From a virus, in UHGV virus genome UHGV-1430452: a stretch of DNA of 64,000 nt. One strand, 5' to 3'. Shown piece by piece: positions 1 through 14,390 of this stretch. A program made the position numbers and the translations under genes. Under the pieces are notes generated by a model. That model worked only from the letters and a program-made list of their open reading frames with translations, did no database searches and had not been told where the DNA came from. Every line of letters begins with the position of its first letter. The first letter of the stretch is position 1.

Positions 1-107
1 GATTTCAAAATATCTTTCATGGTTAACAGCCCCTTCATTTTTTGTAATAAATCTTTCTTTACCGGAAGAGCAGGTTTTTCTTTAGTTAAATAAAAATAAG
101 TTACCAT
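1..107 (-). CDS. hypothetical protein, N-terminal part only (ORF runs off the window start)
   Basis: ATG at 105-107 on minus strand preceded by GAAAGGAA; frame stays open to position 1. Confidence 0.25.
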   Translation of the reverse strand, partial: MVTYFYLTKEKPALPVKKDLLQKMKGLLTMKDILK

Positions 108-124
108 AGACATTCCTTTCATTT

Positions 125-337
125 CTAATCCGTATATTCATGAACTGTATTTAGAACTTTACTAGCACCAGAACAACCGCCTATTTCGATAGATAACGTG
201 GCTAAATGTTCTGTTAAATACGTCGCAGCTTCAATATCGTTAACGTATTTGTTACATATGATCTGACAGGCTGCGATTCGTTTAAGCAATTCGTCCTGTT
301 TATTTTTAGTTAATAGTTTCATAACCTCTCCTTTCAT
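125..337 (-). CDS. hypothetical small protein
   Basis: 70-aa ORF, translationally coupled to upstream gene. Confidence 0.4.
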   Translation of the reverse strand: MKGEVMKLLTKNKQDELLKRIAACQIICNKYVNDIEAATYLTEHLATLSIEIGGCSGASKVLNTVHEYTD

Positions 338-705
338 TTGTATTCAAATAGCACTTGCGTATCTGGACTGCATTCTTTTCGTTCTTCTTTTTCGCAATAT
401 GGGCAACCAAACTTGTCGTAGTTTAGATGCTTACAAAATTCACAAGTTCTTAAAAACGGAACTGGAAAATTACCAAAATCCCAGAAAGATATCTCCCCGC
501 ACTTAGAACATTTATACTTAATGATTCCGTCATTATCCTCTATAAATTGTCCATTTTTAATAAGTTCGTTGATGCACTTAGGACAATATATGAAGGTATG
601 TTGTTTGTTCTTATTTCCATGTTTGATAATGAAGTCTAACATTATAGACCACACCATAATGATTATCACTGCTATTAAAATATCAATCATACTTACTCCT
701 TTCAT
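334..705 (-). CDS. membrane-anchored Cys-rich zinc-ribbon protein
   Basis: N-terminal hydrophobic helix then several CxxC pairs (CPKC, CSKC, CEFC, CPYC). Confidence 0.45.
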   Translation of the reverse strand: MKGVSMIDILIAVIIIMVWSIMLDFIIKHGNKNKQHTFIYCPKCINELIKNGQFIEDNDGIIKYKCSKCGEISFWDFGNFPVPFLRTCEFCKHLNYDKFGCPYCEKEERKECSPDTQVLFEYK

Positions 706-1205
706 CTATGCTGATCGCAGCACCCATTATCGTAATCGAATTCTTCTCGATCTAATGCGCAGTAATAGCCAGATATGTTATCGCAAGTCTCTTCATCATA
801 ATAGTCTTCAAAATCACAATGAACACACTCCCCGCAGCAATGTTTTTCTCTAATATCTTCAACATTCGCATACTCATCATCTCCGGTTAAACGTAATAAT
901 TCTTTAATCTCATCGTCTGTTAAATCGAGTTCACCAGAGTTAAGTCTACTTCTCAAATATTCTGAAAATACAACATCCGAATTACTTGTATAATCAGAAA
1001 TGATATCACCTAACTTGTCATAAGCATCCGGTCCTTCTCCATATTCCTCAGCACATTTCTTACTATTCGGAATATAGTACATACACTGATCTCCGGAAAC
1101 ATCACAATAGTATCTTCCTTCATCCGGATCAAATTTTGCAGCTTTACAAGACATAGTTTTCTCCTTTCTACAATTAACAAAATTCAAGTCCATACCAAGT
1201 ATCAT
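702..1205 (-). CDS. acidic Cys-rich hypothetical protein
   Basis: 167-aa ORF with multiple CxxC/CC motifs. Confidence 0.45.
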   Translation of the reverse strand: MILGMDLNFVNCRKEKTMSCKAAKFDPDEGRYYCDVSGDQCMYYIPNSKKCAEEYGEGPDAYDKLGDIISDYTSNSDVVFSEYLRSRLNSGELDLTDDEIKELLRLTGDDEYANVEDIREKHCCGECVHCDFEDYYDEETCDNISGYYCALDREEFDYDNGCCDQHR

Positions 1206-1458
1206 TGATTTTAGTTACTTTTAATTTGTCTTCATAATACTCGTTTTTATAATTATCAATCAGCTTCTTTTTAGCTTTTGATAAATTTGTAAACCATTCC
1301 TTATCATACATATCGTAATCCCATTCCCAACTGTCTGGTTCAGTCGCTGTACCGAAGCTATCAATAATAAAGCTATCCTTGCCTAAGAACCCGACAGTAT
1401 CGACTAAGATACCATCGTCGTAAATACAATATACTTTTCTACCAAGCTTTGGTTTCAT
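1174..1458 (-). CDS. hypothetical protein
   Basis: 94-aa ORF. Confidence 0.4.
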   Translation of the reverse strand: MKPKLGRKVYCIYDDGILVDTVGFLGKDSFIIDSFGTATEPDSWEWDYDMYDKEWFTNLSKAKKKLIDNYKNEYYEDKLKVTKINDTWYGLEFC

Positions 1459-1471
1459 AGTTTCCCCTTTC

Positions 1472-1615
1472 CTATTTATTGCTCTTTAATTCGTTAGATA
1501 ACGATAACACGATAAGTCCAGCAAATATCAACCAAGCATCCGGTGAAATATTTGAAGTCTGTGCGTTAGTTCCAAAGACAAAACATAAAATTAATAGTAT
1601 TAATATAGTAATCAT
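1472..1615 (-). CDS. small hydrophobic peptide (47 aa)
   Basis: Hand-translated MITILILLILCFVFGTNAQ...; RBS GGAAAGGA upstream; below ORF-track size cutoff. Confidence 0.3.
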   Translation of the reverse strand: MITILILLILCFVFGTNAQTSNISPDAWLIFAGLIVLSLSNELKSNK

Positions 1616-1643
1616 ATATTTATTCGAATCCTTTCCGTAAAAA

Positions 1644-1690
1644 TAAAACAAAAGAGTCTCAACTAAATATCAATCTAGTTAAGACTCCTT
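1644..1690 (-). terminator. intrinsic terminator hairpin
   Basis: Minus-strand GGAGTCTTAACT...AGTTGAGACTC stem followed by TTTTGTTTT, downstream of gene 1702..1917. Confidence 0.55.
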
Positions 1691-1701
1691 TGTGTGATAA
1701 A

Positions 1702-1917
1702 TCATCTTTTTTTAGTAATCGGAATATTCAAATTCATACCACTCTCTTTCAAATCCTTACGGACATTATCGAATTCCTCTTTCCACTTATCAGTCCAGTC
1801 TCCGGCCTTTGTCTTTTCAGGTCTTGTGAACCTGATTTTAGACAGATCGCATCCCTTTTCTTTAAGTCCGTTTGCTACTTCGATAATTTCCTTAATAATT
1901 TTTCCATCAGTATTCAT
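1702..1917 (-). CDS. hypothetical protein
   Basis: 71-aa ORF with AGGAGG RBS. Confidence 0.45.
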   Translation of the reverse strand: MNTDGKIIKEIIEVANGLKEKGCDLSKIRFTRPEKTKAGDWTDKWKEEFDNVRKDLKESGMNLNIPITKKR

Positions 1918-1950
1918 TTCAATTCCTCCTTTAATAAAAAAATGTTTTAT

Positions 1951-1977
1951 TTCATTAAAGTAGATGTTTTTTACGCG
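1951..1977 (-). promoter_or_regulatory. conserved early-gene motif copy (promoter-like)
   Basis: ttcattaaag...ttttttacgcg, divergent member of the repeated motif family; upstream of gene 1702..1917. Confidence 0.35.
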
Positions 1978-2235
1978 TTATTTCCTAATAAACTGTCCAC
2001 ATGATCCGCAATAATGATCATACTCAGCTGTAGGTATTGGTGCCTCGCATGTCGGACATAATTTAAGAGATCCCTGGTCTGGATCGTCCGCCACTCGATA
2101 TTTTAATTCACTAACTACTTCTGTAAAAAGATCGGCGTTAGGTCCACCGTTTTTAATTTCCAAATCTCTAAGTTCTCTCATTCTATTTACAATATTGATT
2201 ACTCTCTGATTTCTTTCTTCTAAATATTTTTTCAT
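1978..2235 (-). CDS. zinc-ribbon protein
   Basis: 85 aa; C-terminal CPTC...CGSC. Confidence 0.45.
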   Translation of the reverse strand: MKKYLEERNQRVINIVNRMRELRDLEIKNGGPNADLFTEVVSELKYRVADDPDQGSLKLCPTCEAPIPTAEYDHYCGSCGQFIRK

Positions 2236-2236
2236 C

Positions 2237-2851
2237 TTATTTCTCCTTTCTTACTACCCTAGCTCTCTCAAAAATATAATTGTTAATATTATCAGGACCG
2301 TTACCATAGCGTTGTACATATGGCACTCCTAAAACATTTCTACCATTTACAAATCTATGTTCTCCGATCCCGATAACTTCGTGTTTCTCATATCGTCCAC
2401 TACTATTCATAATGAACACAATATCACCGACTTTAATCTCATTTACTGGAGTTTCTACAGCATCTAGGAATTCTCCGAGCTGTTCTTTTAATGGTTGACG
2501 AATATCAATCTCTTTAAGGAATTCGTCTAGATCATAACCTTCATGATAGTCTTCACCACCAACATGTCTAACAATATCCCAGTCTTTTACGACATAAATA
2601 CCATTATCCAACCAGTAATCCTCGACTTCACTTTCCCTTACATCAGTCTCAATTCCGATAGATAAGTTTCCACCAAAGAAATTACCTACGACCTGACAGA
2701 ATCTAGCCATACCGTAGGAATCATCAAATCCTCTATGCTCTTTTAACTCACAGTATTTAAGAAATGCAGTAACGCTATCAATACCTCCATTCCAATGCAA
2801 ATATACTCCGATGTCTTTTCCTTCTGGTTTTACGATAGCTCTGTTACCCAT
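2237..2851 (-). CDS. hypothetical protein
   Basis: 204-aa ORF. Confidence 0.45.
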   Translation of the reverse strand: MGNRAIVKPEGKDIGVYLHWNGGIDSVTAFLKYCELKEHRGFDDSYGMARFCQVVGNFFGGNLSIGIETDVRESEVEDYWLDNGIYVVKDWDIVRHVGGEDYHEGYDLDEFLKEIDIRQPLKEQLGEFLDAVETPVNEIKVGDIVFIMNSSGRYEKHEVIGIGEHRFVNGRNVLGVPYVQRYGNGPDNINNYIFERARVVRKEK

Positions 2852-2874
2852 GTTAAGTCAGCTCCTAAGTTGAT

Positions 2875-3075
2875 TTATTTTAAAATGCCTTTATGTCTAC
2901 ATAACTCTAGCAACATTTCATTCTCTTCTTGTAAAGCCTCTAATTTATCGGCAGCATTCTTACAGTAAATATGAATCGCATTAGACATTTTATCCGTTTC
3001 ATCCAACGGAACTTTCGTTAATGGAAACATATTTACAAGCCAACGTAGAGACTTAGCTTCTGGTACTTCTTTCAT
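2875..3075 (-). CDS. hypothetical protein
   Basis: 66-aa ORF. Confidence 0.35.
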   Translation of the reverse strand: MKEVPEAKSLRWLVNMFPLTKVPLDETDKMSNAIHIYCKNAADKLEALQEENEMLLELCRHKGILK

Positions 3076-3281
3076 TCGTTTCTCCTTTCAAATATCAGCT
3101 CCTAATTTAGTCTATCTTTACTATTTGTTCTATGCCGCCATCCCTAAGCTCACGATTTACAACTTGTGCTCCGTAAATTTCAAAATAGTCTGATTCTACA
3201 ATTTGCAAATCCTTTGGCAATTGTTCTAAAATATCGATAAGTTCACCTACTGTCATTTAGTTTCTCCTTTCAAATATCAAC

Positions 3282-3632
3282 TCACAAATCCTCATAGCTA
3301 TGAGCAATCAATGCGTAAATACTTTTATCTAAAACAAACGCATTATCGCCATCATTTCCGAAACCGATTACTCTATGATTCTTCAAGTTGTCACCGTGGA
3401 ATTTCGCATCAATACAACTTTCATCTTTGCTAGTCTGCATAACACAAAAAGTGACATAATTATCGTTAGGAAGTTTTATAGATATAGTGTTCATCCAGTC
3501 TTTAGATTTATGGTCCAAATGAGACATATCAACTGTATAGTGATTACATTTGTTGAATGTCGGATAACCTAATTTCTCAGCTTCCTCGATTGAACATTTA
3601 GTAAATATCAATTCTTTTTGTGTTGCTTCCAT
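3282..3632 (-). CDS. hypothetical protein
   Basis: 116-aa ORF. Confidence 0.4.
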   Translation of the reverse strand: MEATQKELIFTKCSIEEAEKLGYPTFNKCNHYTVDMSHLDHKSKDWMNTISIKLPNDNYVTFCVMQTSKDESCIDAKFHGDNLKNHRVIGFGNDGDNAFVLDKSIYALIAHSYEDL

Positions 3633-3721
3633 TGTTGGTCAGCTCCCTAAGTTAGTTTTAATGCTTAACATTAAATATAAAAAGAAGAAGCCCCAGCTAA
3701 ATATAGCCAGAGCTTCATACT

Positions 3722-3976
3722 TTACTTGCAATGAAATCCCATTACTACTTTTTCTTCAGATTCATTTTCCTTATTTTCTTCCGGTTCAACTTTGATTTTC
3801 GCTTTCTCGCATACCTCCTGTGCGATTTCGTTACCTTCTTTAGCAGCAAACTTCAATGTACCAAGGCCGATACCTGTAATAACTGCCTGAGCCATTTCCG
3901 CTGCAAACTTACCCATAGCAACTCCAAATGACACTGCAAATGCTGCTTTGCGTAAATCTTTAAATTGTCCATTCAT
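3722..3976 (-). CDS. small membrane-associated protein
   Basis: 84 aa, glycine-rich hydrophobic helices; AGGAGG RBS. Confidence 0.4.
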   Translation of the reverse strand: MNGQFKDLRKAAFAVSFGVAMGKFAAEMAQAVITGIGLGTLKFAAKEGNEIAQEVCEKAKIKVEPEENKENESEEKVVMGFHCK

Positions 3977-4006
3977 TTTAAGTTCCTCCTTTAAGAAATA
4001 TAGACT

Positions 4007-4037
4007 TCATTCCATTAAAGGCGATGTTTATGTCGCG
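4007..4037 (-). promoter_or_regulatory. conserved early-gene motif copy (promoter-like)
   Basis: ttcattccattaaaggcgatgtttatgtcgcg; ~30 nt upstream of the RBS of 3722..3976. Confidence 0.45.
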
Positions 4038-4039
4038 TA

Positions 4040-4369
4040 TTATCTATTTTTCTTACCGTAAGCGGAATAATCCCTACGCTTTGGAGTTACTGGTGCTTCT
4101 GGTTTTTCCGGACTTTCTTCCACCACCTCAACAGCATCGACGGGAGTGTCTGGCTTCTCTTCTTTTTTGACTTCTCCGTATGCGCTGCTAGTCTCGACTT
4201 TCTTACCGTTAACTCTTTTCTTCCATTCACAATCAAACTCTTCATCGATGCCAGACTTGTAAGAAAACGTGCAAATATACTCCTGTCCTGTTTTTGAATC
4301 TGTGTAAATATCACCGATAGCTCCTTCTGTTCTTCTTGTTGGTGCTCCTACTCCTGTTAATTTAGCCAT
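4040..4369 (-). CDS. hypothetical protein
   Basis: 109-aa ORF, Lys/Glu/Pro-rich tail. Confidence 0.4.
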   Translation of the reverse strand: MAKLTGVGAPTRRTEGAIGDIYTDSKTGQEYICTFSYKSGIDEEFDCEWKKRVNGKKVETSSAYGEVKKEEKPDTPVDAVEVVEESPEKPEAPVTPKRRDYSAYGKKNR

Positions 4370-4388
4370 TGATATTATCCTCCATAAT

Positions 4389-4607
4389 TTAAACTTTTTC
4401 TATTTTGCATTCATCACTGAGTAACCAGTTAAGACTTACTCCAGATAAACAAGGGTGTGGTGCAAAACCAGGTAATTTGATTAATGAACCCTGCTTACTA
4501 TCGAAATAATAAATATCGTTACTCTTCTGATTTGTAAATCTGAAGTATTCAGACGGCCCAATACCGAGCCGCCTTCTGATTAAAAATATAATTAATCTAT
4601 TTAACAT
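4389..4607 (-). CDS. hypothetical protein
   Basis: 72-aa ORF. Confidence 0.3.
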   Translation of the reverse strand: MLNRLIIFLIRRRLGIGPSEYFRFTNQKSNDIYYFDSKQGSLIKLPGFAPHPCLSGVSLNWLLSDECKIEKV

Positions 4608-4622
4608 ATCGCTCCTTTCTGA

Positions 4623-5120
4623 TTACTCTTCCGGATGTTCCTCCGCTGCAAATCTGGATGAGAATCTGTCAATATCCTGAGTTACACACATTGACTGCAA
4701 ATATGCTGCACGGAATGGTTTACCGTTAATCTCAGAATCATACGGTCTGATATCAAGATCGACACTTGCAATATCAATTTCGTCGAGCATGGATACTGTT
4801 TCTTCATCAAGTTTGACTCTATTTCTACCAGACTGAAGATATACAATAGGGCCTCTGTCGTTAAATTTGACTTTAACTGGAAGATAGATAAATGGTTCAT
4901 CTCCATCTTCTCTTGGCGGTTTGATCTTTACATTCCATCCTGCTCCAAACTTATTTACATCATTCTGCAAAGCTTCTGCCATTTCTTCGTTAGGGATAAT
5001 CAAAGCGAAGTTACGGTCTCCTTCTTTGTTGAATTTACCGCCTTCTCCTCTGAAGTTTCTGAAAATGATTCTTGCGTCATCGATCTGTAATACTCCTCTT
5101 GGTGCGAATGTTAATTCCAT
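4623..5120 (-). CDS. hypothetical protein (possible ssDNA-binding protein)
   Basis: 165 aa next to the replicase; the function is a guess from context. Confidence 0.3.
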   Translation of the reverse strand: MELTFAPRGVLQIDDARIIFRNFRGEGGKFNKEGDRNFALIIPNEEMAEALQNDVNKFGAGWNVKIKPPREDGDEPFIYLPVKVKFNDRGPIVYLQSGRNRVKLDEETVSMLDEIDIASVDLDIRPYDSEINGKPFRAAYLQSMCVTQDIDRFSSRFAAEEHPEE

Positions 5121-5230
5121 AATGTTAATCTCCTTTTAAATAAATATAGTTTTTAATGGATTTGATTTAATTGCTGCGTTGGACTTTTGTTTAACTTCCT
5201 CGCATATGATTGCTCCTTTCTTGTGATAGA

Positions 5231-5270
5231 AAAACAAAAAGAGTCTCAACCATAATCGGTCAAGACTCCT
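5231..5270 (-). terminator. intrinsic terminator/attenuator hairpin
   Basis: Minus-strand GGAGTCTTGACC...GGTTGAGACTC + TTTTTGTTTT; near-duplicate of the hairpin at 1644..1690. Confidence 0.5.
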
Positions 5271-5277
5271 TATCTCT

Positions 5278-5305
5278 TCATTAAAGCCGTTGTATTTTTC
5301 GCGAT
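5278..5305 (-). promoter_or_regulatory. conserved early-gene motif copy, here immediately followed by a terminator hairpin
   Basis: ttcattaaagccgttgtatttttcgcga; lies between the stop of 5311..5601 and the hairpin at 5231..5270. Confidence 0.4.
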
Positions 5306-5310
5306 TCGTA

Positions 5311-5601
5311 CTATCGTAAAGATTTTGGGACAAGGCTTTTGATAATCTTTTTCTGATGCTCGTCCAGATCGTGATATAGAGTGAAACCCGTTGCCCCATT
5401 ATACTCATCGCCAAACTGTTTGTAGTACATAGATTGTTTCCATAACTCCGGATACTCTTTTTTGTACTTTGCGAGTTCTTTTGCTTTCTTGTCATACTGT
5501 TTATCCGAAATTATATTATTATCTAACTCGTAATAAATATATGAATGAAGTATGATATATCTTTGCAAGTAATCTATGTATTCGAGGGTTGTTAGTTCCA
5601 T
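5311..5601 (-). CDS. hypothetical protein
   Basis: 96-aa ORF. Confidence 0.4.
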   Translation of the reverse strand: MELTTLEYIDYLQRYIILHSYIYYELDNNIISDKQYDKKAKELAKYKKEYPELWKQSMYYKQFGDEYNGATGFTLYHDLDEHQKKIIKSLVPKSLR

Positions 5602-8600
5602 GGCAGCTCTACATCTTCATCATCGAATGGAATTTCCTCAGGAGATCCTTCCGGTATGTTCATGAAGTCTGGTAAATGAGAATCTCTAAAAGGAGGTTCA
5701 TGCCGATCTGAAGCATCCCAAGGCGGAGTACCAACATATGGATCGTCTGATATGAACCACTCAGCGTCTCCGTATTGACCAATAGTTTCAAGAGCATCAT
5801 CCACAAGCTTTCGATAATATGAACGATCAATATTTTCTTCATTTCCCGGAGACATCATTAACTCGGATTCAAGCCAACGGAAACCAGTTGTTCCTGTAGC
5901 TGCATAATATTTACCGTTCTGTTCTCGCATCAATAGTCCTCCACCCTTTCCAGGCTTAACCGGACAAAATTGCCCAACTTTACCTACGAAATGATAGTCA
6001 TGACCTTCAGCTATTAAATCGTTTAATCTTCGACACTCACTTTCGAAAGTTGTGTCCGATAACTTACCTTTCCTGTACTTATCTTCAAGTTTGGATAGTT
6101 CTTTTTCATACTCGGATACATCTGGAAGTTTTTCGTTCATATCCAAATATAAAGCAGATTTTACTGAGAATGCTTCGCACATATCTTTCAACTCAATTGG
6201 TTCTTTACTGAACAGTGTTTTAAATACATACGGAACTGCAAACTGTTTTCCAGTAGCTGTCCATTCTCCGGCATTCTTTCCATCTTTAAACCTAGCCACG
6301 TACACAGCATCATTTACTAAACAGAATTTTTCAAAGTTAGCCTCTGTTTCAAATGTATATCCGTATTCTTTACCGAATTTGGTTACGAAATCAATAATAT
6401 CAGGAGTAGCATCGGGTATCTTTATGGAATCTGTCTTGATATGACAAACAGTAAATCCTCGTTTCTGAACTTCTCTTTTCAATAATGTCATGAAGAGAGC
6501 TCCTCTTTTGGCAACAATGTTATCCTTATTTCTAGGATCTCTAAATTCATTTACGAAGCCAGCTGATGTCAAACCATAAATGGAATTGATAACAATCTTA
6601 AGTGCCTGCGCTAAATCAGCAGCCTGTTCTTCATTTAAGTATGGTTTCAACGCTCCACCTAATAATTGTCCAGCTGTTTCAAAGTCTTTATGCTTAATTG
6701 CAACACGAGCTTTTACAATATCCTCAAACCGTTTTGTATATTCTGGTCCAAATAGACATTCGAATATAATACTGTGAGGATGCTGAGAAGCAATGTCTCC
6801 ATCCCATACATTACCGTAATGCCCAGGTTCAGAGTAAACCCGACCGCCTTCTCCAATGGCTTCGCCTAAATATGTTGATTTACCAAACTCAAAAGTATAG
6901 CCTTTAAAGAATGGAAGAATGCTATAACCTTCTGGAAGCTTTTCGCCAGGAACGTAAGATCGATATAATGGAAGACCCTCAGAATCAAATACTCTGAAAT
7001 CATAATCATCTCCGAATTTAATTCTATATTCATCATAACGATCTGAGCTAACCGGTTCCGCCAAGTATCTATAGTTGAATACATTCTGCGGTTTTTTATT
7101 ATTTCCAAATATAATTCTTTTAGAAAGAGTATTTGTCGTATCATTAACTGTAACGTTTGTAATATCATGTAAGAGTTTTACAAGATCAACCTGAATCTGT
7201 CTAGCAACAAAGTCTGCTTTTCTTGCATTGAATACAGCTTCCGTCGCAATGACATCATTATCGCAATACTCAGCAACCTTTGCCCATAATTCTTCTGGAA
7301 CTGGTTGATCCCAAGGAAGACCAAGCTCTTGATGATGAATACCCAGTTCAATCTCCCATTTCTTTAAACTCTGTTTCACAGTTGACATATCATATACATC
7401 AATGTAACCAAGATTATATGCCTCACCAAACATGCCATTATCACGGCTTCCCTTTGGAGCATTAATAATTCTTTGAGATAACTTATATATTTCCTCATTT
7501 GTGTATCCCATAAGTCTAGCATAAATGATATGTCTGTCGTATTTACGTCCATTAAAATCAACAAGTTTAAACTTTAGAAGATTTTCTATTTCTGCTGGTG
7601 TAGGATTAATTAATCTAACTACTGTTTTTCCTTCTCCAGCAAACTTATAGTTTACCAAAAATAAATTTGGGAATACCTCACAATCATAGAATACAAGATC
7701 GTCAGTATCACCCTCATTACTTGTCTCTGAAGCCTCTTCACTCTTAAACGCCATCTGATTAACTAACTTCAAACACTCATCAGCCTGGTTACTACTACTC
7801 GCCGCCAAAGCAAATACAGCATTTTTCATATCAGACACATCATATCCAATACCACTCTCATAAGCCTCATCCAAAAGTTTCTTAATCATTTGAATACTTG
7901 GAGCTGTGTTACCCATAATTTCTTTATTCAGATGTTTCTTAAGAACGGATCTCAAATATTTCTCATTCTTAATACCATCAAAGTTAATCACATTTTTCAC
8001 CTCTTTCAACGGAAGACCTGAGCTAATTGTACGAATAACAAGATTGACACACTTAGTAAGTTTTCTTCTAAGAGATGTTTTACCGGTAAATACCTTAATC
8101 TCGATATCCTCATCAAATATACGACTTAATTCACTCACATCACCGTTATAAATATAATGAAGATGAATACCTCCACCACTTTTGCTTAACTCAGCATATG
8201 TTGGAGGCCATTTACTAGCTGCTTCAAGATTCTTCTCGAAACATTTATTACCATTCTCGTCCTTAATATCAAAGTCAATAACTACATGATTTTCAGGGAC
8301 CTTGACGTAATGAAGTTTTGATGTGTCAAGTTCTGATAGGGTAGTTGAAACTTCATCCCATGGCTTCGTCGGAGTTTCTTTTGAAGTAGCATATTGAGCT
8401 GGACAATCAGAACATTCTTTATCAAAAATAGACTCCTGTTCTTCAAATATAAGCCAGCTCTCAGTTTTCTCATCTCCAATAGGTTTCTCTGCTTTAACCT
8501 TTTTCTTCCCACCAATAGAGTCTTCGAAAATATCAGTCTTAAAACCGTCGTAATAACTCAGCAGCTTACTTCCATCTTCTTTCTCCACCTTCTCATCAAA

Positions 8601-9818
8601 TTCCAAAAAATAGTTTCTCAACTCGTCTTTGAATTTTGTCTTAGAAAATGGATACGGCACTTTTGCTTCCTCACAGTAGTTTTTATACATCTCCCATGCT
8701 GCTTTTAGCGTAGTACCATCTTCTTTCTTGAAGACACTGAATGAATCACATACGAAGTTATAAAAGTCATTAGAAGCCATAAGCATGTCCTTCGGAGCGT
8801 AAGTATCGTAATACTCTGGATCTTCTTTAAAGACTTGTAAACAATGATATGCGATTGCTCCCAACTCAAAATCAACCTGTTTGGTCAATCTACGATATTC
8901 TCGAATCGGTATCTTGTTTCCAGTAGGACGAACGTCAATCAAACGCCTTAGTAAACCAGACTTAGCATCAGTGATCTTAACAGGTGTGTTTGTACCCATA
9001 AATAAAAAACATTTGAATCTTGTTTCATATTGTCCTTTAAATTTTTCATTCATGGTCATTATCTCGTGTGAAATCACCGAGTTTAAGCGCGTATTATCTT
9101 CGATTTTTGATAAATCACCATCATGTTGTATCGCTACAAGAGGGTTATTCTTAAACGGTTCCAGAGCGAAAACATTATTCGGATTACCCAAAGCTTTTGC
9201 GTCAAAAGAACAACAATATCCTTCAAATAATTTCTCGATAATATTTATGATAGTTGATTTACCAGTACCACCAGCTCCGTAAAGCACCAGGAACTTTTGA
9301 AGTATTTTTGATTCCCCAGATACAACGGAGCCGATAGCCCATTCTATTTTACGTCGTTCTTCTTCGGAATATAGAGTACCGATGAGTTTATCCCATGCAG
9401 AAATATCGCCAGGTTCGAGAGGATACGGGAGTCTCTTGCTTGCGAAATTCTCTCTGCTTAATTCTGTGTTTGAAAATATAAGTTCATCATCGAGTACAGC
9501 AAAGTTATCACGCATCTGTTTCTGACAATATTTATGGAACTTATCGATTGAGCCACTGTCAGCATCCCACATATACTTAATTACAGGAGTACCTTCAAGA
9601 CGTCCTTCATTTTCAGCGACATATCTATCAAGTTCTCTATCTACAAGACGGGTTACATCGTCTTCATCTGTACTCCACATCTTTCGATCTTCATCCCAGA
9701 TAGCGTAAAAGTCCCTACCTCGAATCATGAGATCTTTAGATTTCAACATTTTGAACTTAGGAGAAACATCAACACTGCTTTTATTCGTCTTCGTTGATAC
9801 TGTCATGAAGTCCAACAT
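5592..9818 (-). CDS. fused replication protein: SF3-type P-loop helicase + AEP primase-like + family-B DNA polymerase with 3'-5' exonuclease
   Basis: Walker A LVLYGAGGTGKST; primase-like VIDFDIKD and GGGIHLHYIYNG; exo-like FYDCEVF and YCDNDV; PolB motif B KIVINSIYG; motif C HIKTDSIKI. Confidence 0.8.
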   Translation of the reverse strand: MLDFMTVSTKTNKSSVDVSPKFKMLKSKDLMIRGRDFYAIWDEDRKMWSTDEDDVTRLVDRELDRYVAENEGRLEGTPVIKYMWDADSGSIDKFHKYCQKQMRDNFAVLDDELIFSNTELSRENFASKRLPYPLEPGDISAWDKLIGTLYSEEERRKIEWAIGSVVSGESKILQKFLVLYGAGGTGKSTIINIIEKLFEGYCCSFDAKALGNPNNVFALEPFKNNPLVAIQHDGDLSKIEDNTRLNSVISHEIMTMNEKFKGQYETRFKCFLFMGTNTPVKITDAKSGLLRRLIDVRPTGNKIPIREYRRLTKQVDFELGAIAYHCLQVFKEDPEYYDTYAPKDMLMASNDFYNFVCDSFSVFKKEDGTTLKAAWEMYKNYCEEAKVPYPFSKTKFKDELRNYFLEFDEKVEKEDGSKLLSYYDGFKTDIFEDSIGGKKKVKAEKPIGDEKTESWLIFEEQESIFDKECSDCPAQYATSKETPTKPWDEVSTTLSELDTSKLHYVKVPENHVVIDFDIKDENGNKCFEKNLEAASKWPPTYAELSKSGGGIHLHYIYNGDVSELSRIFDEDIEIKVFTGKTSLRRKLTKCVNLVIRTISSGLPLKEVKNVINFDGIKNEKYLRSVLKKHLNKEIMGNTAPSIQMIKKLLDEAYESGIGYDVSDMKNAVFALAASSSNQADECLKLVNQMAFKSEEASETSNEGDTDDLVFYDCEVFPNLFLVNYKFAGEGKTVVRLINPTPAEIENLLKFKLVDFNGRKYDRHIIYARLMGYTNEEIYKLSQRIINAPKGSRDNGMFGEAYNLGYIDVYDMSTVKQSLKKWEIELGIHHQELGLPWDQPVPEELWAKVAEYCDNDVIATEAVFNARKADFVARQIQVDLVKLLHDITNVTVNDTTNTLSKRIIFGNNKKPQNVFNYRYLAEPVSSDRYDEYRIKFGDDYDFRVFDSEGLPLYRSYVPGEKLPEGYSILPFFKGYTFEFGKSTYLGEAIGEGGRVYSEPGHYGNVWDGDIASQHPHSIIFECLFGPEYTKRFEDIVKARVAIKHKDFETAGQLLGGALKPYLNEEQAADLAQALKIVINSIYGLTSAGFVNEFRDPRNKDNIVAKRGALFMTLLKREVQKRGFTVCHIKTDSIKIPDATPDIIDFVTKFGKEYGYTFETEANFEKFCLVNDAVYVARFKDGKNAGEWTATGKQFAVPYVFKTLFSKEPIELKDMCEAFSVKSALYLDMNEKLPDVSEYEKELSKLEDKYRKGKLSDTTFESECRRLNDLIAEGHDYHFVGKVGQFCPVKPGKGGGLLMREQNGKYYAATGTTGFRWLESELMMSPGNEENIDRSYYRKLVDDALETIGQYGDAEWFISDDPYVGTPPWDASDRHEPPFRDSHLPDFMNIPEGSPEEIPFDDEDVELPWN

Positions 9819-10029
9819 TCATCTTATGGCCTCCTTTCATTTTTTTAATATATGATTCTAATGTTTCATAGCACCAGTCATAAAAATTATGGTAAGTAAA
9901 AACAAAATCCGAGCCGCTTTTTATGCGAACTCGGACACTATCTTTACCGTTGGGGAACCAGTCTTCTACATGAATTGCAATTTCCGGAAATTGTTTGCTA
10001 AATTGTTTATATACATCTTCGTGCTTCAT
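9781..10029 (-). CDS. hypothetical protein
   Basis: 82-aa ORF. Confidence 0.4.
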   Translation of the reverse strand: MKHEDVYKQFSKQFPEIAIHVEDWFPNGKDSVRVRIKSGSDFVFTYHNFYDWCYETLESYIKKMKGGHKMNVGLHDSINEDE

Positions 10030-10038
10030 ATCTTACCT

Positions 10039-10593
10039 CTAAACAAAAGTATCTAAATACCATAACATTTGAATCCAGATTTCAAATTTACGTAAGTCAT
10101 GATCGCAATTCTTAACTCTGAATAATCCACCGCGGCCGTCGGGTTCATATTCACGTTTGAGAAATGTGTTGATCACTTCTCTAACATACTTTTTATCAAA
10201 CCTGGAATCATACATACCGCCCAAACCGAGATTTACGATCATCTTCCAGAACCATTGTCCTGTTCTATCGCCGACACTCGGATCGTCCATAATATCTTCG
10301 CAACGAATTGCAAGAGCTATTATCATTTCTAGGATACTACATGGACGAGATAACATATCGACGATAACTTCTCGGCTTTCAGGGCTGTATATTTCATAAG
10401 CAAACCGACTTCTCAGATTTTCTCCGTCAGTTTCTCTGTTCTCATCTTTTGGGATGCTGTATCTGAATTCAATCTCATGTAAATATTCCAAAAGCTTTTT
10501 ATATGAATTTGCTTTGGCATATCTACCACTGCATACCAGATTATACATCCACTCGAAATATTCTATCTCAATTTCAGTCCTCGTCACCGCCAA
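10039..10593 (-). CDS. hypothetical protein
   Basis: 184-aa ORF. Confidence 0.45.
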   Translation of the reverse strand: MAVTRTEIEIEYFEWMYNLVCSGRYAKANSYKKLLEYLHEIEFRYSIPKDENRETDGENLRSRFAYEIYSPESREVIVDMLSRPCSILEMIIALAIRCEDIMDDPSVGDRTGQWFWKMIVNLGLGGMYDSRFDKKYVREVINTFLKREYEPDGRGGLFRVKNCDHDLRKFEIWIQMLWYLDTFV

Positions 10594-11167
10594 CTACCTC
10601 GCTGTAACTTCCGTAATCTCTAAGGATTTCGTAATATGACTTAAAATTAGGATTTTTGATATACACAGTATCGTCTTCATACTCTCCGAAATGGGAAGCG
10701 AAATCCTCTCCTACCATCTCGTCAATATTACCAATTATTCTGTCACGTTCATCCGCGAGCACTCCATCACCTTCATAATATGTCAGAGTGATCATCGGAT
10801 AATCCTGCTCCCATGTCTCTTCTGGAGCAATTACTTCAGGTCCGCCCATGTCATCTGCTTCCTCCTTTTCTTTCTCTTTCATAGCCTGCTCGTTAATATA
10901 ACCGAGCTCCTGTACTTTATCTCTGATTTCCTGAACAGTAAGTTTATCCGGATTTTCAATACCATCTTTTAAACCTTCCGTTAAAGCCTCTCCAACTTTT
11001 TTACAAGCTTTGCTCTCAGAATAGCGATCCCTAAGGAATTCATTCTCTTCGGTTTTGTCAGCAATGATCTGCTCGTACTTGGTTTTAACTAACTTCCATG
11101 TTACTACCGAACCGATTGCACCTCCAGCTAAGAATATCATTCCTTTAATTAATAAATTCTTGTTCAT
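10574..11167 (-). CDS. membrane-anchored acidic protein
   Basis: N-terminal TM helix (IFLAGGAIGSVVTW) then acidic soluble region. Confidence 0.45.
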   Translation of the reverse strand: MNKNLLIKGMIFLAGGAIGSVVTWKLVKTKYEQIIADKTEENEFLRDRYSESKACKKVGEALTEGLKDGIENPDKLTVQEIRDKVQELGYINEQAMKEKEKEEADDMGGPEVIAPEETWEQDYPMITLTYYEGDGVLADERDRIIGNIDEMVGEDFASHFGEYEDDTVYIKNPNFKSYYEILRDYGSYSEVVGGDED

Positions 11168-11179
11168 TTGTTTCTCCTT

Positions 11180-11377
11180 TCACTCAGAGTATATAAGTTC
11201 GTACTCACCGCTATCATTTTGTTCCTCGTTTGGATCAGTCTTTACCGATAACACCGTCACTGCTAGTCCACCGAATAACAGTGAAATACTCATAAGAATC
11301 CCTCCTGCGATATGACGTCTTTTCTTTGTATTTAACGAATGGTCTATCATTGATAGAATTCTTCCGAGCTTCTCCAC
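11180..11377 (-). CDS. small membrane protein
   Basis: 65 aa with TM segment GGILMSISLLFGGLAVTVL. Confidence 0.35.
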   Translation of the reverse strand: MEKLGRILSMIDHSLNTKKRRHIAGGILMSISLLFGGLAVTVLSVKTDPNEEQNDSGEYELIYSE

Positions 11378-11396
11378 TTATATCTCTCCCTTTGTT

Positions 11397-11525
11397 TTAT
11401 TTAGTTGCTGTTGTAGTTTTTAAAATATGCGAATTCCCCTCAATAGGATGAGTAAGAATCATAAGTCCACTGACAAAACAAATCCCAGCAATAGTGGCAA
11501 ACGTAATTGATAACTTTTCTTTCAC
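11397..11525 (-). CDS. small hydrophobic peptide (42 aa, GTG start)
   Basis: Hand-translated KEKLSITFATIAGICFVSGLMILTH...; RBS AAAGGA; below ORF-track cutoff. Confidence 0.25.
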   Translation of the reverse strand: MKEKLSITFATIAGICFVSGLMILTHPIEGNSHILKTTTATK

Positions 11526-11773
11526 GTTAAGTCAGTCCTTTCATTCTTTTCGAACGGATTTGGTTGCAACGCTAAAACAAAGTAGTCATCGACGATTTTA
11601 GCACCTTTTACTTTGCCGATTTCAATCATTGCTTTAACTGTTGCAGTTCCACAATTCCATCTCACAGCTGCTTTTTCTGCTGAGATAAATAACGGCGTAA
11701 GATTCTGACTGAATAACTCTTTGTCTTCCAAACCGTTCTCCAAAATATAAATGATTAACTCTCTACCGGTCAT
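11522..11773 (-). CDS. HTH-like small DNA-binding protein
   Basis: 83 aa; helix-turn-helix-like stretch AEKAAVRWNCGTATVKAMIEIG. Confidence 0.4.
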   Translation of the reverse strand: MTGRELIIYILENGLEDKELFSQNLTPLFISAEKAAVRWNCGTATVKAMIEIGKVKGAKIVDDYFVLALQPNPFEKNERTDLT

Positions 11774-11925
11774 AAATCTCTCTCCATTTTTGATATATAC
11801 TCTTCAGGAAATATGGAATCGATAGACTTCAAGATGTCATTTAGATCATCTTCATCCATCGGTTCACTTAGAGTACAGGCTACTGCAATTTTTAAGTTAT
11901 TGAGTCTTTCTCGTAAATCGGTCAT
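11770..11925 (-). CDS. small acidic protein (51 aa)
   Basis: Hand-translated MTDLRERLNNLKIAVACTLSEPMDEDD...; AAGGAG RBS; ATGA overlap with next gene. Confidence 0.3.
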   Translation of the reverse strand: MTDLRERLNNLKIAVACTLSEPMDEDDLNDILKSIDSIFPEEYISKMERDL

Positions 11926-12028
11926 TCAATTCTCCTTATACTTACCCTCAGCCTCATGCACGAAGCCAAGGGTAGTCAAACATATCTCTGTAGGGATTCC
12001 CAGACCCGAGATTATCGAGTCCTGACAT

Positions 12029-12967
12029 TCAAATCATGTTGAGAATATCCCCATCCACATTGAAATCAAGAAGAATAGTTCTCTCATAACCGTTCACGAA
12101 GTTACGATTTGCCTCGTTGTAAGTGTTATAGATTCCGAAATCTACGAAATTATCACCTACTGGATGTTTCTCGTCATAAATCCATCCAACAATCTGACCT
12201 GCCTGTGTACGCGGGATTCCGAGCATATCATATACTTCATTCAGGAACAGATGACCTTTCGTTTTCAACATGTCATTTGCATAACGCTGCTGATCTTTAA
12301 GGAACATTAGATTGAATTCAGGATCTTTAGTCCATCCTGTACATCCATCATCGAAGAATTTAGCATAATCGCTGTAACTGTCGAGAGTTGCTACATTTGC
12401 TGTTTTCTTAACAGTAGTTTCTGTACCATCTTCATTTACAACAGTCTCTTCGATTTCTTTTGCTTTGATGTTGTACTTCAGTTCTTTATCAAGCTCTTCA
12501 CCAAATCTCTCAATAACACGACCACGATATTCCTTGAAGCCTTTGTCAATAGTTGCATAAGCGGCTGCAAGTGCTAAGTTACGTTTACGAAGAATATGAT
12601 GACCACTAAGAATAGCAGCGATAGAAACTGTTCCAAGGATTACTGCTGGAGCATAAAGTTTTGCTACCTTTACGGCTGTTTGAGTATACATGATAGTTAA
12701 ATCTTTCTTACCATCTTCTTCTGTGTACTCTTTACCTTCTGGAACCATATCTGGATTTTCCATAAATTCATGAATTTTCTCGATTTTTTCTTTTGGCTCA
12801 GCGAGCACCTCATCGAGTTTAGTAGTTGCTTTACATGCCATTACAGCAGAGCCAACTACACCAACAATACCTGCGCCAACCAAGATTTCAGGGCTATGCT
12901 TTTTAAATTTAAAACCTACACGATGGAGGCTTCTAGTTACTGTGTTCATAATTTCTAATTTTGCCAT
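12029..12967 (-). CDS. membrane-anchored protein, paralogue family member A
   Basis: 312 aa; shares the N-terminal block (SPEIL..G.GI.G..S.V.A.KAT.K..E) and the YAPAVILG...RxLALAAAY block with 15042..15869 and 17330..18106. Confidence 0.5.
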   Translation of the reverse strand: MAKLEIMNTVTRSLHRVGFKFKKHSPEILVGAGIVGVVGSAVMACKATTKLDEVLAEPKEKIEKIHEFMENPDMVPEGKEYTEEDGKKDLTIMYTQTAVKVAKLYAPAVILGTVSIAAILSGHHILRKRNLALAAAYATIDKGFKEYRGRVIERFGEELDKELKYNIKAKEIEETVVNEDGTETTVKKTANVATLDSYSDYAKFFDDGCTGWTKDPEFNLMFLKDQQRYANDMLKTKGHLFLNEVYDMLGIPRTQAGQIVGWIYDEKHPVGDNFVDFGIYNTYNEANRNFVNGYERTILLDFNVDGDILNMI

Positions 12968-12969
12968 GA

Positions 12970-13416
12970 TTATTTACTCTCCTTTTCTAATTCTTTACAA
13001 AATTCCATTAAACTTTTACCGCGAATAAGAATATCGTTTGGTGTTAAAACAATATCAGGTTCCTTGCTCTTATTCGGATTCTCAACATATTCAATAAGCC
13101 TATTGAGATACCACTGAGCTTTCTTTAAGTCCTCAATGCCGTTTTTCTTTTTCCAGCGACATAAATACTTCATTGCATTACCTGTACAAAATGCTTCTAA
13201 TCCGTTAAGACCATCACAAAAGGCCTCGATAACGTCGATAGTTTCGAGACCTGATTTTGACTGATAATGATCCGGATGATTCACCATATCGTTTTTGGCA
13301 ACCCATTGTGTCGGAATACAAAAAGGATCATCGCTCGTTATACAGTGTTTACAAGCTTCCGATCCCATTGTACGACCACAATTGTCACAATCATATTTGC
13401 TTTTTGTTATACTCAT
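12970..13416 (-). CDS. DUF3310-like phage protein
   Basis: HPDHYQ...GLETIDVIEAF...NAMKYLCRWKKKNGIEDLKKAQWYLNRLIE pattern recalled from the DUF3310 family. Confidence 0.5.
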   Translation of the reverse strand: MSITKSKYDCDNCGRTMGSEACKHCITSDDPFCIPTQWVAKNDMVNHPDHYQSKSGLETIDVIEAFCDGLNGLEAFCTGNAMKYLCRWKKKNGIEDLKKAQWYLNRLIEYVENPNKSKEPDIVLTPNDILIRGKSLMEFCKELEKESK

Positions 13417-13426
13417 AGTTTTCCTT

Positions 13427-13735: not shown

Positions 13736-13767
13736 CGTAACGACACATCCTTATTGTGTATTTTTAT

Positions 13768-14376: not shown

Positions 14377-14390
14377 TTTCTTATCACCTC

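What the first reader, a model, noticed from the sequence alone, without database searches (positions are those of the whole stretch)
5231..5305. Motif copy immediately followed by a terminator hairpin (possible attenuator), duplicated at 1644..1690
Here the motif is followed within ~10 nt by a strong hairpin + U-run, so transcripts from it would terminate at once unless antiterminated. A tiny ORF (MRGS) follows. A near-identical hairpin occurs at 1644..1690. Together these suggest regulated read-through into the replication genes.
Basis: seen in the sequence. Interest (0 to 1): 0.4.

Follow-up and report, generated by a model that had tools for sequence, protein, structure and literature searches.

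The report
Empty promoter–terminator cassette before phage SSB
A phage promoter sits directly in front of a transcription stop signal, most likely because the small gene once between them was lost, so the downstream DNA-binding-protein gene can only be expressed by polymerases that run through the stop.

Summary
Window 5305..5274 is one of 20 co-oriented copies of a 32-nt promoter-like motif. Three nt later comes a strong intrinsic terminator: stem 5271..5238, U-run to 5230. The hairpin at 1693..1648 shares its stem base and U-run, but it has no motif beside it. It is the ordinary end of a promoter–gene–terminator unit.

The window is a temperate phage of gut Clostridia. The motif occurs in all 81 related loci, always on the coding strand. 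The hairpin belongs to a clade-wide terminator family.

The usual junction order is terminator then motif. About 7% of motif copies show the reverse order. At this slot, relatives L001 and L005/L007 carry a small orphan gene between the same two elements. The window, L002 and L003 carry nothing, so this is an empty cassette.

No other promoter precedes the SSB gene, so SSB needs terminator read-through. This holds in 31 of 70 relatives. Classical attenuation is excluded: there is no leader, and the MRGS mini-ORF lies downstream. Regulated, Q-like antitermination remains possible but unshown. Interest is modest. It is a new variant of known promoter–terminator cassettes.

The parts
5274..5305 (-). 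Copy of the clade-wide 32-nt promoter-like motif (consensus tTCGCGAAAAtTACAnnnnCCTaTTATGrrAA). Its -10-like hexamer TTTAAT lies at 5285..5280. The inferred transcription start zone is 5279..5274.
   Evidence: Matrix score 36.5 bits. Consensus positions are kept in L002 and L003 despite 14 of 32 differences between the window and L003. The start zone is inferred from the motif copy abutting a tRNA 5' end and the copy abutting a ribosome-binding site at 20002..19971.
5238..5271 (-). Intrinsic-terminator hairpin with 15 pairs including G-U pairs, so it is stable only as sense-strand RNA. Core stem 5268..5241. It belongs to the clade-wide GAGTCTTGRC...GYTGAGRCTC family.
   Evidence: Family census. 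Covariation and wobble counts. Compensatory changes in L002 and L003.
5230..5240 (-). U-run TTTTTGTTTTT immediately 3' of the stem.
5191..5219 (-). Ribosome-binding site AAAGGAG (5219..5213) plus mini-ORF MRGS-stop (5205..5191), downstream of the terminator. It is probably the vestige of a small gene or a ribosome-loading site. It is not a leader peptide for this terminator.
   Evidence: At the same place L002 has MRGG, L003 has MVMKK, L001 has MT, L005/L007 have an 11-codon ORF and L044 has an ORF of about 41 aa.
4623..5120 (-). ssDNA-binding protein gene, the first gene that depends on read-through of the terminator.
   Evidence: Pfam PF24083 Phage_ssDNA_bind, E = 5e-42. No motif or sigma-70-like site on this strand between 5230 and 5120.
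5311..5601 (-). 96-aa ORF resembling the N-terminal Ia domain of NAD-dependent DNA ligase. Its stop codon lies 5 nt before the motif.
   Evidence: Pfam PF22745, E = 9e-22. phrog_6466.
5592..9818 (-). 1408-aa primase/helicase-DNA polymerase fusion. This is the upstream operon that the terminator closes.
   Evidence: phrog_4210, E = 0, plus primase phrogs. DUF5906.
1648..1693 (-). Second member of the same hairpin family (20 pairs) with a U-run to about 1638. It terminates the unit made of motif 1979..1948 and the 71-aa gene 1917..1702. A 47-aa membrane-type ORF (1615..1472) follows with no promoter of its own.

Best explanation
This is an empty promoter-terminator cassette in a variable slot of the phage replication module.

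Shown:
- 5305..5274 is a functional-looking copy of the clade's own promoter type.
- 5271..5230 is a canonical intrinsic terminator from a hairpin family shared across the clade.
- Relatives carry an unrelated small orphan gene between the same two elements, at the same slot between the ligase-Ia-like gene and SSB.
- No other promoter precedes SSB.

Inferred:
- The juxtaposition arose when the orphan gene was lost from a promoter-gene-terminator unit.
- The terminator ends most transcripts of the polymerase/ligase-Ia operon.
- It also ends most transcripts started 3-8 nt upstream of it at the motif, giving a hairpin RNA of about 45 nt.
- SSB and the following genes are made from the fraction of polymerases that read through.
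- The element therefore works as a promoter-proximal attenuator. The local promoter adds extra initiations in front of it.
- Whether read-through is constant leak or raised by a phage factor cannot be decided from sequence.
For: Promoter status of the motif:
- 20 co-oriented copies sit 0-40 nt upstream of ribosome-binding sites.
- One copy ends exactly at the mature 5' end of a tRNA.
- Eight copies start right after the U-run of the preceding terminator.
- The motif is found in all 81 related loci and never on the non-coding strand.

Terminator status of the hairpin:
- It has a 15-pair stem and an uninterrupted U-run, with z = -4.7.
- It belongs to a family that normally follows stop codons.
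- That family keeps its pairing through wobble and compensatory changes.
- L002 and L003 keep the arrangement, with A-T to G-C and wobble changes in the stem.

Empty cassette:
- L001 has ligase-Ia stop, motif, ribosome-binding site, 74-aa ORF, terminator of the same family, mini-ORF, then SSB.
- L005 and L007 have a different ORF of about 65 aa in the same slot.
- The L001 ORF is absent from the window.

Read-through is required:
- No promoter-like site lies between 5230 and 5120.
- Of 70 non-redundant relatives, 28 have terminator then SSB with no motif between, 3 have motif, terminator, SSB, and none has terminator, motif, SSB.
- Window terminators at 14646..14617, 3716..3687 and 1693..1648 are also followed by genes without a motif.

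The reversed order recurs:
- 25 of 340 non-redundant motif copies are followed within 8 nt of the inferred start by a hairpin plus T-rich tail.
- About 30 such junctions lie 20-60 nt before the ribosome-binding site of a real gene.
Against: - No transcript data exist. The promoter activity, the start site and the termination efficiency are all inferred.
- Placing a promoter before a strong terminator looks wasteful, so a specific function may be hidden.
- The motif keeps its consensus positions in three genomes. A motif-then-terminator junction just downstream of SSB is kept in 9 loci whose SSBs are only 76-100% identical to L011's. The architecture can therefore be stable, not only a recent deletion scar.
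- The direction of the event is not proven. Loss of a gene in the window lineage and gain of a gene in L001 and L005/L007 both fit.
- Only three distinct genomes carry this exact junction.
Confidence: 0.55

Rival explanations
1. Regulated, promoter-loaded antitermination, like lambda pR'-tR'. The motif promoter makes only a short terminated RNA until a phage factor, loaded at the motif, renders the polymerase terminator-resistant. This would switch on SSB and later genes.
For: - The anatomy is the same as pR'-tR': a promoter followed at once by a terminator, with the downstream genes lacking a promoter.
- The replication module holds several terminators with no promoter after them.
- 21Q itself has a sigma-region-4-like fold and binds DNA within the promoter (PMC6606751).
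- The first motif copy starts 49 nt after that gene.
Against: - The 139-aa protein matches no Q family or any other family by sequence. Foldseek against PDB finds nothing. The fold match is equally good for an activator or a small sigma-like factor.
- In the early region, 17 motif copies alternate with terminators every 200-1300 nt. This argues that motif-started polymerases do stop at such terminators.
- No consistent -10-like pause element appears in the initially transcribed region of the motif-then-terminator copies.
- Downstream genes are early or replication genes, not late genes.
Confidence: 0.2
2. Dual-use hairpin. It is the 3' end of the polymerase-operon mRNA and also a 5'-terminal stem-loop that protects SSB mRNA from 5' exonuclease, together with the ribosome-binding site and mini-ORF. 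This would resemble the 5' stabilisers known in Bacillus.
For: - The stem begins 3-8 nt from the inferred start.
- A strong ribosome-binding site with a mini-ORF follows in four lineages, with different peptides.
- The host group is Firmicutes.
- 5' stem-loops and ribosome-binding-site stabilisers are established there. This rests on my own knowledge and was not tested here.
Against: - Hairpins near the motif start are not enriched over controls: 29 of 340 against 23-43 in control windows.
- 25 of those 29 carry a T-rich tail, so they are terminators, not generic stabilisers.
- Terminators in the reversed order are as strong as those in the normal order: -16.0 against -14.5 kcal/mol, with equal T content.
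- The mini-ORF is also present in L001, where no promoter adjoins the hairpin.
Confidence: 0.1
3. Neutral relic. The promoter copy is silent or irrelevant and the juxtaposition has no function. The hairpin acts only as terminator of the upstream operon.
For: - Origin by loss of the cassette's gene.
- Only three genomes carry the junction.
Against: - The window and L003 differ at 14 of 32 motif positions, yet every high-information position is kept and both copies score 30 bits or more.
- Similar junctions elsewhere persist across SSB divergence of 76-84%.
Confidence: 0.1
4. The hairpin RNA of about 45 nt is itself the product. It could be a small regulatory RNA or a replication primer or origin transcript between the polymerase and SSB genes.
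For: - A promoter plus a terminator hairpin with nothing between is the anatomy of very short plasmid antisense RNAs. This rests on my own knowledge.
- L001 has a motif, terminator, motif unit after the 139-aa gene, where the first promoter can only make a short RNA.
- The location lies inside the replication module.
Against: - No complementary target was found. The only related sequence (1693..1648) is identical in sense, not antisense.
- No Rfam family matches.
- No iterons or repeats lie around 5100..5350.
- Relatives have an ordinary gene in the slot.
Confidence: 0.05

Closest known systems
PeSL (promoter-early stem-loop) cassettes of T4-type phages (PMC2839356; PMC4122927)
   Same: - Conserved composite promoter plus terminator stem-loop motifs repeat between small orphan genes.
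- The stem-loop position relative to the promoter varies.
- Related phages differ by presence or absence of the orphan gene at one slot. The same is seen here for L001, L005/L007 and the window.
- The same hairpin family flanks SSB on both sides in L079 and L080.
   Different: - The PeSL promoter is a sigma-70-type early promoter. Its stem-loop lies between or over the -35 and -10 boxes or just before the start site, so it is outside the local transcript.
- Here the promoter is a different 32-nt motif with no -35 box at 17 bp, and the whole terminator lies inside the local transcript.
- Recombination or mini-circles were not tested.
Lambdoid late promoter pR' with terminator tR' and Q antiterminator (PMC6606751)
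   Same: - A promoter is followed directly by an intrinsic terminator.
- Downstream genes have no promoter of their own.
- A small protein with a sigma-region-4-like fold is encoded early in the phage.
   Different: - tR' lies about 200 nt from the start in lambda, against about 45 nt here.
- No Q homologue is detectable by sequence.
- No sigma-dependent pause element was identified.
- The genes downstream are early or replication genes.
- The motif occurs 20 times, mostly without a following terminator.
Terminators inside operons of Gram-positive mobile elements, overcome by processive antitermination (Tn916 T1-T3 and canT, PMC11658703)
   Same: - Terminators lie in front of replication-related genes of an integrated element of Firmicutes.
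- Expression of the downstream genes needs read-through.
   Different: - canT is a cis-acting RNA downstream of one promoter.
- Here there is no room for an RNA element between the start site and the terminator, and no canT-like element was identified.
Classical transcription attenuators (leader peptide, riboswitch, T-box)
   Same: A terminator lies between the promoter and the first gene.
   Different: - There is no leader sequence and no alternative antiterminator fold.
- The mini-ORF lies downstream of the terminator.

Membership tests
Intrinsic (Rho-independent) terminator | Stable G+C-containing stem-loop in the sense RNA | tested here: met
   15-pair stem at 5271..5238. The 49-nt transcript folds at -19.5 kcal/mol, z = -4.7. 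G-U pairs make it strand-specific.
Intrinsic (Rho-independent) terminator | U-run immediately 3' of the stem | tested here: met
   TTTTTGTTTTT at 5240..5230.
Intrinsic (Rho-independent) terminator | RNA 3' ends at the U-run in vivo or in vitro | not testable with these tools
   Needs Term-seq or in vitro transcription.
Promoter (clade-specific motif) | Co-oriented with genes, in intergenic positions, at a short fixed distance upstream of ribosome-binding sites or RNA genes | tested here: met
   20 of 20 window copies lie on the coding strand. Across 81 loci there are no copies on the other strand. One copy abuts a tRNA 5' end.
Promoter (clade-specific motif) | Canonical sigma-70/sigma-A architecture (-35 TTGACA, 17 bp, -10 TATAAT) | tested here: not met
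   A -10-like TATTAT/TTTAAT is present, but the upstream conserved block TTCGCG lies only 14 bp away. The consensus scan does not pick up the motif copies as good sigma-70 sites.
Promoter (clade-specific motif) | Mapped transcription start | not testable with these tools
   The start zone 5279..5274 is inferred only from the tRNA and ribosome-binding-site constraints.
Classical attenuator (leader peptide or riboswitch) | Leader RNA upstream of the terminator able to form an alternative antiterminator fold | tested here: not met
   Only 3-8 nt lie between the start zone and the stem. Folding 5345..5228 shows the upstream hairpin is separate and the terminator intact. No Rfam match.
Classical attenuator (leader peptide or riboswitch) | Leader ORF upstream of or overlapping the terminator | tested here: not met
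   MRGS (5205..5191) lies 25 nt downstream of the U-run.
Q-type antitermination module (pR'-QBE-tR') | Promoter followed by a terminator, with downstream genes lacking their own promoter | tested here: met
Q-type antitermination module (pR'-QBE-tR') | Q-family protein encoded by the phage | tested here: inconclusive
   [not shown]
Q-type antitermination module (pR'-QBE-tR') | -10-like sigma-dependent pause element in the initially transcribed region | tested here: inconclusive
   The window copy has GATAAG (4 of 6). Other motif-then-terminator copies show no common element.
PeSL-like mobile promoter-terminator cassette | Conserved promoter plus stem-loop composites repeated between small orphan genes | tested here: met
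   In the early region 15-23 kb, 17 motif copies alternate with terminators. The hairpin family is shared across loci.
PeSL-like mobile promoter-terminator cassette | Presence or absence, or replacement, of the flanked orphan gene between related genomes at one slot | tested here: met
   L001 has a 74-aa ORF, L005/L007 have a different ORF of about 65 aa, and the window, L002 and L003 have none.
PeSL-like mobile promoter-terminator cassette | Sigma-70 early promoter with the stem-loop placed within or just before the promoter | tested here: not met
   The promoter type differs, and here the stem-loop lies downstream of the start site.
PeSL-like mobile promoter-terminator cassette | Recombination between cassettes (mini-circles) | not testable with these tools
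   Needs inverse PCR or long-read data.

The most novel reading that the evidence does not exclude
The conserved 139-aa protein, with a fold like sigma region 4 and 21Q, loads onto RNA polymerase at the 32-nt motif and makes it terminator-resistant. The motif-then-terminator junctions would then be Q-like switches controlling SSB and other genes. About 7% of motif copies in this very abundant clade of gut Clostridia phages are such junctions. This would be a Q-type, promoter-loaded antitermination system outside the lambdoid phages of Proteobacteria.
Probability: 0.12. Interest if true: 0.65.

Novelty: new variant of a known kind. Interest (0 to 1): 0.3.

Why it matters
By itself the junction is a small regulatory detail. 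It does expose how an uncharacterised but very common clade of temperate gut-Firmicutes phages is wired:
- The clade has a private promoter type, a shared terminator family and cassette-like orphan genes.
- Its replication module is punctuated by terminators that must be read through.

If read-through proves to be factor-dependent, the clade would offer a new antitermination system and a compact promoter-terminator switch. If not, it is a clear example of how cassette shuffling leaves empty promoter-terminator units that act as attenuators.

Tried and rejected
- Near-identity search of 4000..7000 against GenBank phages found no match. Relatives were found only through the SSB protein.
- Rfam found only the tRNA, at gathering threshold on the whole window and at E <= 1 on 1..24100.
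- Classical attenuation was rejected. There is no leader and no competing fold, and MRGS lies downstream.
- The idea that the start site lies inside the stem, so that local transcripts lack the full hairpin, was rejected for the window copy. The tRNA and ribosome-binding-site constraints place the start no later than core position 31, which is 3-8 nt before the stem. It may still apply to the L011-type junctions, where the stem starts inside the motif.
- A generic 5' stabiliser hairpin is not supported. Hairpins near the start are not enriched, and those present carry U-tails.
- Terminators in the reversed order are not weaker than those in the normal order.
- An origin-of-replication reading found no iterons or repeats near the site.
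- The 71-aa gene in front of the second hairpin is not a homologue of the L001 orphan gene. That gene is absent from the window.
- The terminator-like hairpin at 9935..9908 lies inside an 82-aa ORF and was discarded.
- The 139-aa protein has no Pfam, NCBIfam or PDB sequence hit and no Foldseek PDB hit.
- Scans of viral and metagenome contigs for the junction returned only the L002 and L003 contigs and one contig identical to the window.

Full report
**What is at the coordinates**

Almost all genes of the window are on the minus strand, and the finding must be read on that strand. In the 5'-to-3' direction of the minus strand the order is:
- the stop codon of a 96-aa ORF at 5313..5311;
- a motif copy at 5305..5274;
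- a hairpin with stem 5271..5238 (core GAGTCTTGACC / GGTTGAGACTC);
- the run TTTTTGTTTTT at 5240..5230;
- the ribosome-binding site AAAGGAG at 5219..5213;
- the mini-ORF ATG CGA GGA AGT TAA (MRGS) at 5205..5191;
- the start codon of a 165-aa gene at 5120.

The terminator scan lists the hairpin with 15 pairs. It also lists a hairpin at 1693..1648 with 20 pairs. In 1..9000 the scan finds 11 terminator-like sites, against 3.5 ± 2.2 in shuffles. The predicted 49-nt transcript folds at -19.5 kcal/mol (z = -4.7). The second hairpin folds at -27.2 kcal/mol (z = -9.4). The two hairpins share AAGGAGTCTTRAC ... GTTGAGACTCTTTT. That pattern occurs exactly twice in the window and never in 100 shuffles. 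Only the hairpin is duplicated, not the motif-plus-hairpin pair.

**What the motif is**

Repeat finding gave families of a 30-40-nt repeat. A matrix built from 20 copies has the consensus tTCGCGAAAAtTACAnnnnCCTaTTATGrrAA. It scores all 20 copies at 25-43 bits, all on the minus strand. Nothing else in the window scores between 8 and 25 bits, and shuffles give 0-2 hits at 8 bits.

Seventeen copies lie in a region of small genes at 15-23 kb. The others are at 5305, 4039 and 1979.

Four observations point to a promoter:
- Copies sit 0-40 nt upstream of ribosome-binding sites.
- The copy at 16062..16031 ends exactly at the mature 5' end of a tRNA.
- The copy at 20002..19971 runs straight into the ribosome-binding site of a 49-aa ORF.
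- Eight copies begin directly after the U-run of the preceding terminator.

The start site must lie no later than core position 30-31, that is 1-6 nt after the TATTAT/TTTAAT hexamer. For the copy in question this gives a start zone of 5279..5274.

The motif is not a standard sigma-A promoter. The conserved upstream block TTCGCG is only 14 bp from the hexamer.

**What the genome is**

The plus strand carries a double helix-turn-helix repressor (24053..24649) and a large serine recombinase (24726..26312).

Lytic genes run leftwards from a sigma-A-like promoter at 23902. In order they are:
- a cro-like gene;
- a 57-aa ORF;
- a 139-aa protein (23476..23057);
- the motif-driven small genes.

Further along lie three genes:
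- a 1408-aa primase/helicase-DNA polymerase fusion (9818..5592);
- the 96-aa ORF, which resembles the Ia domain of NAD-dependent ligase;
- the 165-aa ssDNA-binding protein.

Relatives are one unannotated GenBank record from human faeces, 80 IMG/VR contigs, and prophage-like regions in Ruminococcus, Ruminiclostridium and Eubacterium ramulus assemblies. This is a temperate phage clade of gut Clostridia.

**Clade-wide context**

The window-derived matrix finds the motif in all 81 loci. It is always on the coding strand and never on the other.

The hairpin belongs to a family with consensus GAGTCTTGGCTAGAAATAGCTGAGGCTC plus a T-run, of which I found 38 non-redundant copies. Most directly follow a stop codon, and many flank SSB on one or both sides. 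In an alignment of 29 members, the pairs are kept through wobble and compensatory changes. Several conserved G-U pairs make the structure specific to the sense RNA. The lower stem was part of the search pattern, so only the upper pairs count as independent evidence.

**How unusual the order is**

I used my own terminator finder on 398 motif copies in the window and the loci held at that point (L001-L081). Of these, 67 have a terminator ending within 25 nt upstream, which is the normal order. About 30 have a hairpin plus T-run starting within -6 to +10 nt of the motif end.

After removing redundancy there are 340 copies. Of these, 29 have a hairpin (-8 kcal/mol or better) starting within 8 nt of the inferred start, and 25 of those carry a T-rich tail. 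Control windows at other offsets give similar numbers of hairpins but 0-12 with such tails. Start-proximal hairpins are therefore terminators, not generic 5' stem-loops.

About 30 non-redundant junctions read stop, motif, terminator, then 20-60 nt, then the ribosome-binding site of a real gene, with no other motif. Some are followed by a tRNA.

Terminators in the reversed order are as strong as those in the normal order: -16.0 against -14.5 kcal/mol, with equal T content.

A second example exists in the window: motif 18245..18214, terminator 18191..18143, then a DUF6353 gene.

**The SSB junction in relatives**

The polymerase-to-SSB order is conserved in all loci, but the distance between the two genes varies from 33 to more than 1300 nt. 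The 70 non-redundant SSB upstream regions divide as follows:

| Arrangement before SSB | Regions |
|---|---|
| Terminator, then SSB, no motif between | 28 |
| Motif, terminator, SSB (window, L002, L003) | 3 |
| Terminator, motif, SSB | 0 |
| No terminator within 200 nt | 39 |

SSB therefore never has its own promoter behind a terminator. In 31 of 70 cases it can only be reached by read-through.

In the window, no motif or sigma-70-like site lies between 5230 and 5120 on this strand. Terminators at 14646..14617, 3716..3687 and 1693..1648 are likewise followed by genes without a motif.

**Origin of the juxtaposition**

L002 and L003 (SSB 94% and 88% identical) keep the order motif, hairpin, U-run, 105-130 nt, SSB. 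The stem shows A-T to G-C and wobble changes. The window and L003 differ at 14 of 32 motif positions, but every high-information position is kept.

The next relatives have a gene in the slot:
- L001 reads ligase-Ia stop, motif (17 bits), ribosome-binding site, 74-aa membrane-type ORF, terminator of the same hairpin family, mini-ORF, SSB.
- L005 and L007 carry a different ORF of about 65 aa between a motif-like site and a terminator.

The L001 ORF is absent from the window and from the other loci.

The slot thus holds a promoter-(orphan gene)-terminator cassette whose gene differs or is missing. The window carries the empty form. This parallels the PeSL cassettes of T4-type phages. There, conserved promoter-plus-stem-loop motifs flank orphan genes that come and go between close relatives, and the stem-loop position varies (PMC2839356).

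**Mechanism**

Two points are shown. A transcript started at the motif contains the entire hairpin and U-run. No alternative fold competes with the hairpin, either in that transcript or in one coming from upstream.

The rest is inferred:
- Both classes of transcript mostly end at about 5235..5230.
- The local promoter then yields a hairpin RNA of about 45 nt.
- SSB mRNA comes from the read-through fraction.

Leader-peptide or riboswitch attenuation is excluded, because there is no leader and the mini-ORF lies downstream. What remains is either constitutive leak or modification of the polymerase by a factor.

**Candidate factor**

The 139-aa protein has 7912 homologues, 73-91% identical among the best 120. 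It has no family assignment.

An AlphaFold model has mean pLDDT 78.5 and is all-helical. Fold searches gave:
- no Foldseek hit in PDB;
- weak BFVD hits that include proteins named sigma-70 region 4, DUF1492 and transcriptional activator.

21Q itself contains a sigma-region-4-like fold (PMC6606751). This is a lead, not a test. It fits an activator or small sigma-like factor for the motif at least as well as it fits an antiterminator.

The dense alternation of motifs and terminators in the early region argues that motif-started polymerases normally do terminate.

**Verdict**

Read-through is indeed required, but this is not a classical attenuator. The "duplicate" is an ordinary terminator, and regulation is unproven.
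- The best reading is an empty promoter-terminator cassette acting as a promoter-proximal attenuator before SSB (confidence 0.55).
- A Q-like switch remains the most interesting alternative (about 0.2 as a rival; 0.12 for the full novel case).

Noticed in passing
window 23008, 22479, 22206, 21550, 21066, 20600, 20002, 19760, 19567, 19254, 19028, 18675, 18245, 17141, 16328, 16062, 15038, 5305, 4039, 1979 (minus-strand start of each 32-nt core): A private promoter-like motif, tTCGCGAAAAtTACAnnnnCCTaTTATGrrAA, has 20 copies on one strand. It is found in all 81 related loci and never on the non-coding strand. It is not a standard sigma-A promoter, because the upstream block lies only 14 bp from the -10-like hexamer. 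The factor that recognises it is unknown.
   Followed up: partly
[not shown]
   Followed up: partly
window 15958-16031 (-): A tRNA gene starts exactly at the end of a motif copy, so it has essentially no 5' leader. Its anticodon loop appears to have 6 nt (CTTATA). ARAGORN could not assign an anticodon, while Rfam scores it at 62 bits.
   Followed up: no
window 18500-18644 (-): A G+C-rich leader of about 140 nt that looks structured follows motif 18675 and ends in a T-run before the gene starting at 18469. It has no Rfam match, even at E <= 1. It was not found in the held loci, which mostly do not cover the early region. It could be an unknown riboswitch-like leader or a small RNA.
   Followed up: partly
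window 18143-18245 (-): A second case of a promoter followed by a terminator. Motif 18245..18214 is followed by a small hairpin, then terminator 18191..18143 with a long T-run, then a DUF6353 gene with no other promoter.
   Followed up: partly
window 5121-5160 (-), and about 45 nt upstream of SSB in most loci: A conserved A+U-rich box, TTATATTTAtTTAAAGGAGATTAAAA, spans the SSB ribosome-binding site across the clade, even where the rest of the spacer differs. Together with the hairpin and U-run upstream, it recalls the translational operator of T4 gene 32. This rests on my own knowledge and was not tested.
   Followed up: no
window 5191-5219 (-); L001 19906-19929; L002 and L003 same position: A strong ribosome-binding site plus a 2-5-codon mini-ORF lies just after the terminator in four lineages, with different peptides (MRGS, MRGG, MVMKK, MT). 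L044 has a 41-aa ORF there. It is either the vestige of a gene or a ribosome-loading site.
   Followed up: partly
window 14617-14646 (-) and 3687-3716 (-): Strong terminators are followed within 3-35 nt by the ribosome-binding site of the next gene, with no promoter motif. Read-through seems to be a general requirement in the replication module.
   Followed up: partly
L011, L025, L033, L035, L036, L037, L039, L042, L075, about 10460-10560: Just downstream of SSB, a motif copy overlaps the base of a terminator stem (GAGAGGAAGAG...CTCTTCCTCT). Transcripts from that promoter may lack the lowest pairs that bring the stem next to the U-rich tract. That would make the terminator stronger for upstream transcripts than for the promoter's own. 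The arrangement is kept across SSB identities of 76-100% to L011.
   Followed up: partly
L079 and L080, 9925 and 10498: The SSB gene is flanked on both sides by near-identical copies of the same terminator hairpin. This would allow the gene to be exchanged as a module by recombination.
   Followed up: no
window 12029-12967, 15042-15869, 17330-18106 (-): Three paralogous DUF6353 genes lie in the early and replication region.
   Followed up: no
window 30567-30690, 35442-35957, 57303-57628; 41550-49097 (-): Collagen-like Gly-X-Y repeats occur in several structural genes. A 2515-aa ORF carries six 192-nt tandem repeats (43488-44570) and 168/180-nt repeats (45646-46235).
   Followed up: no
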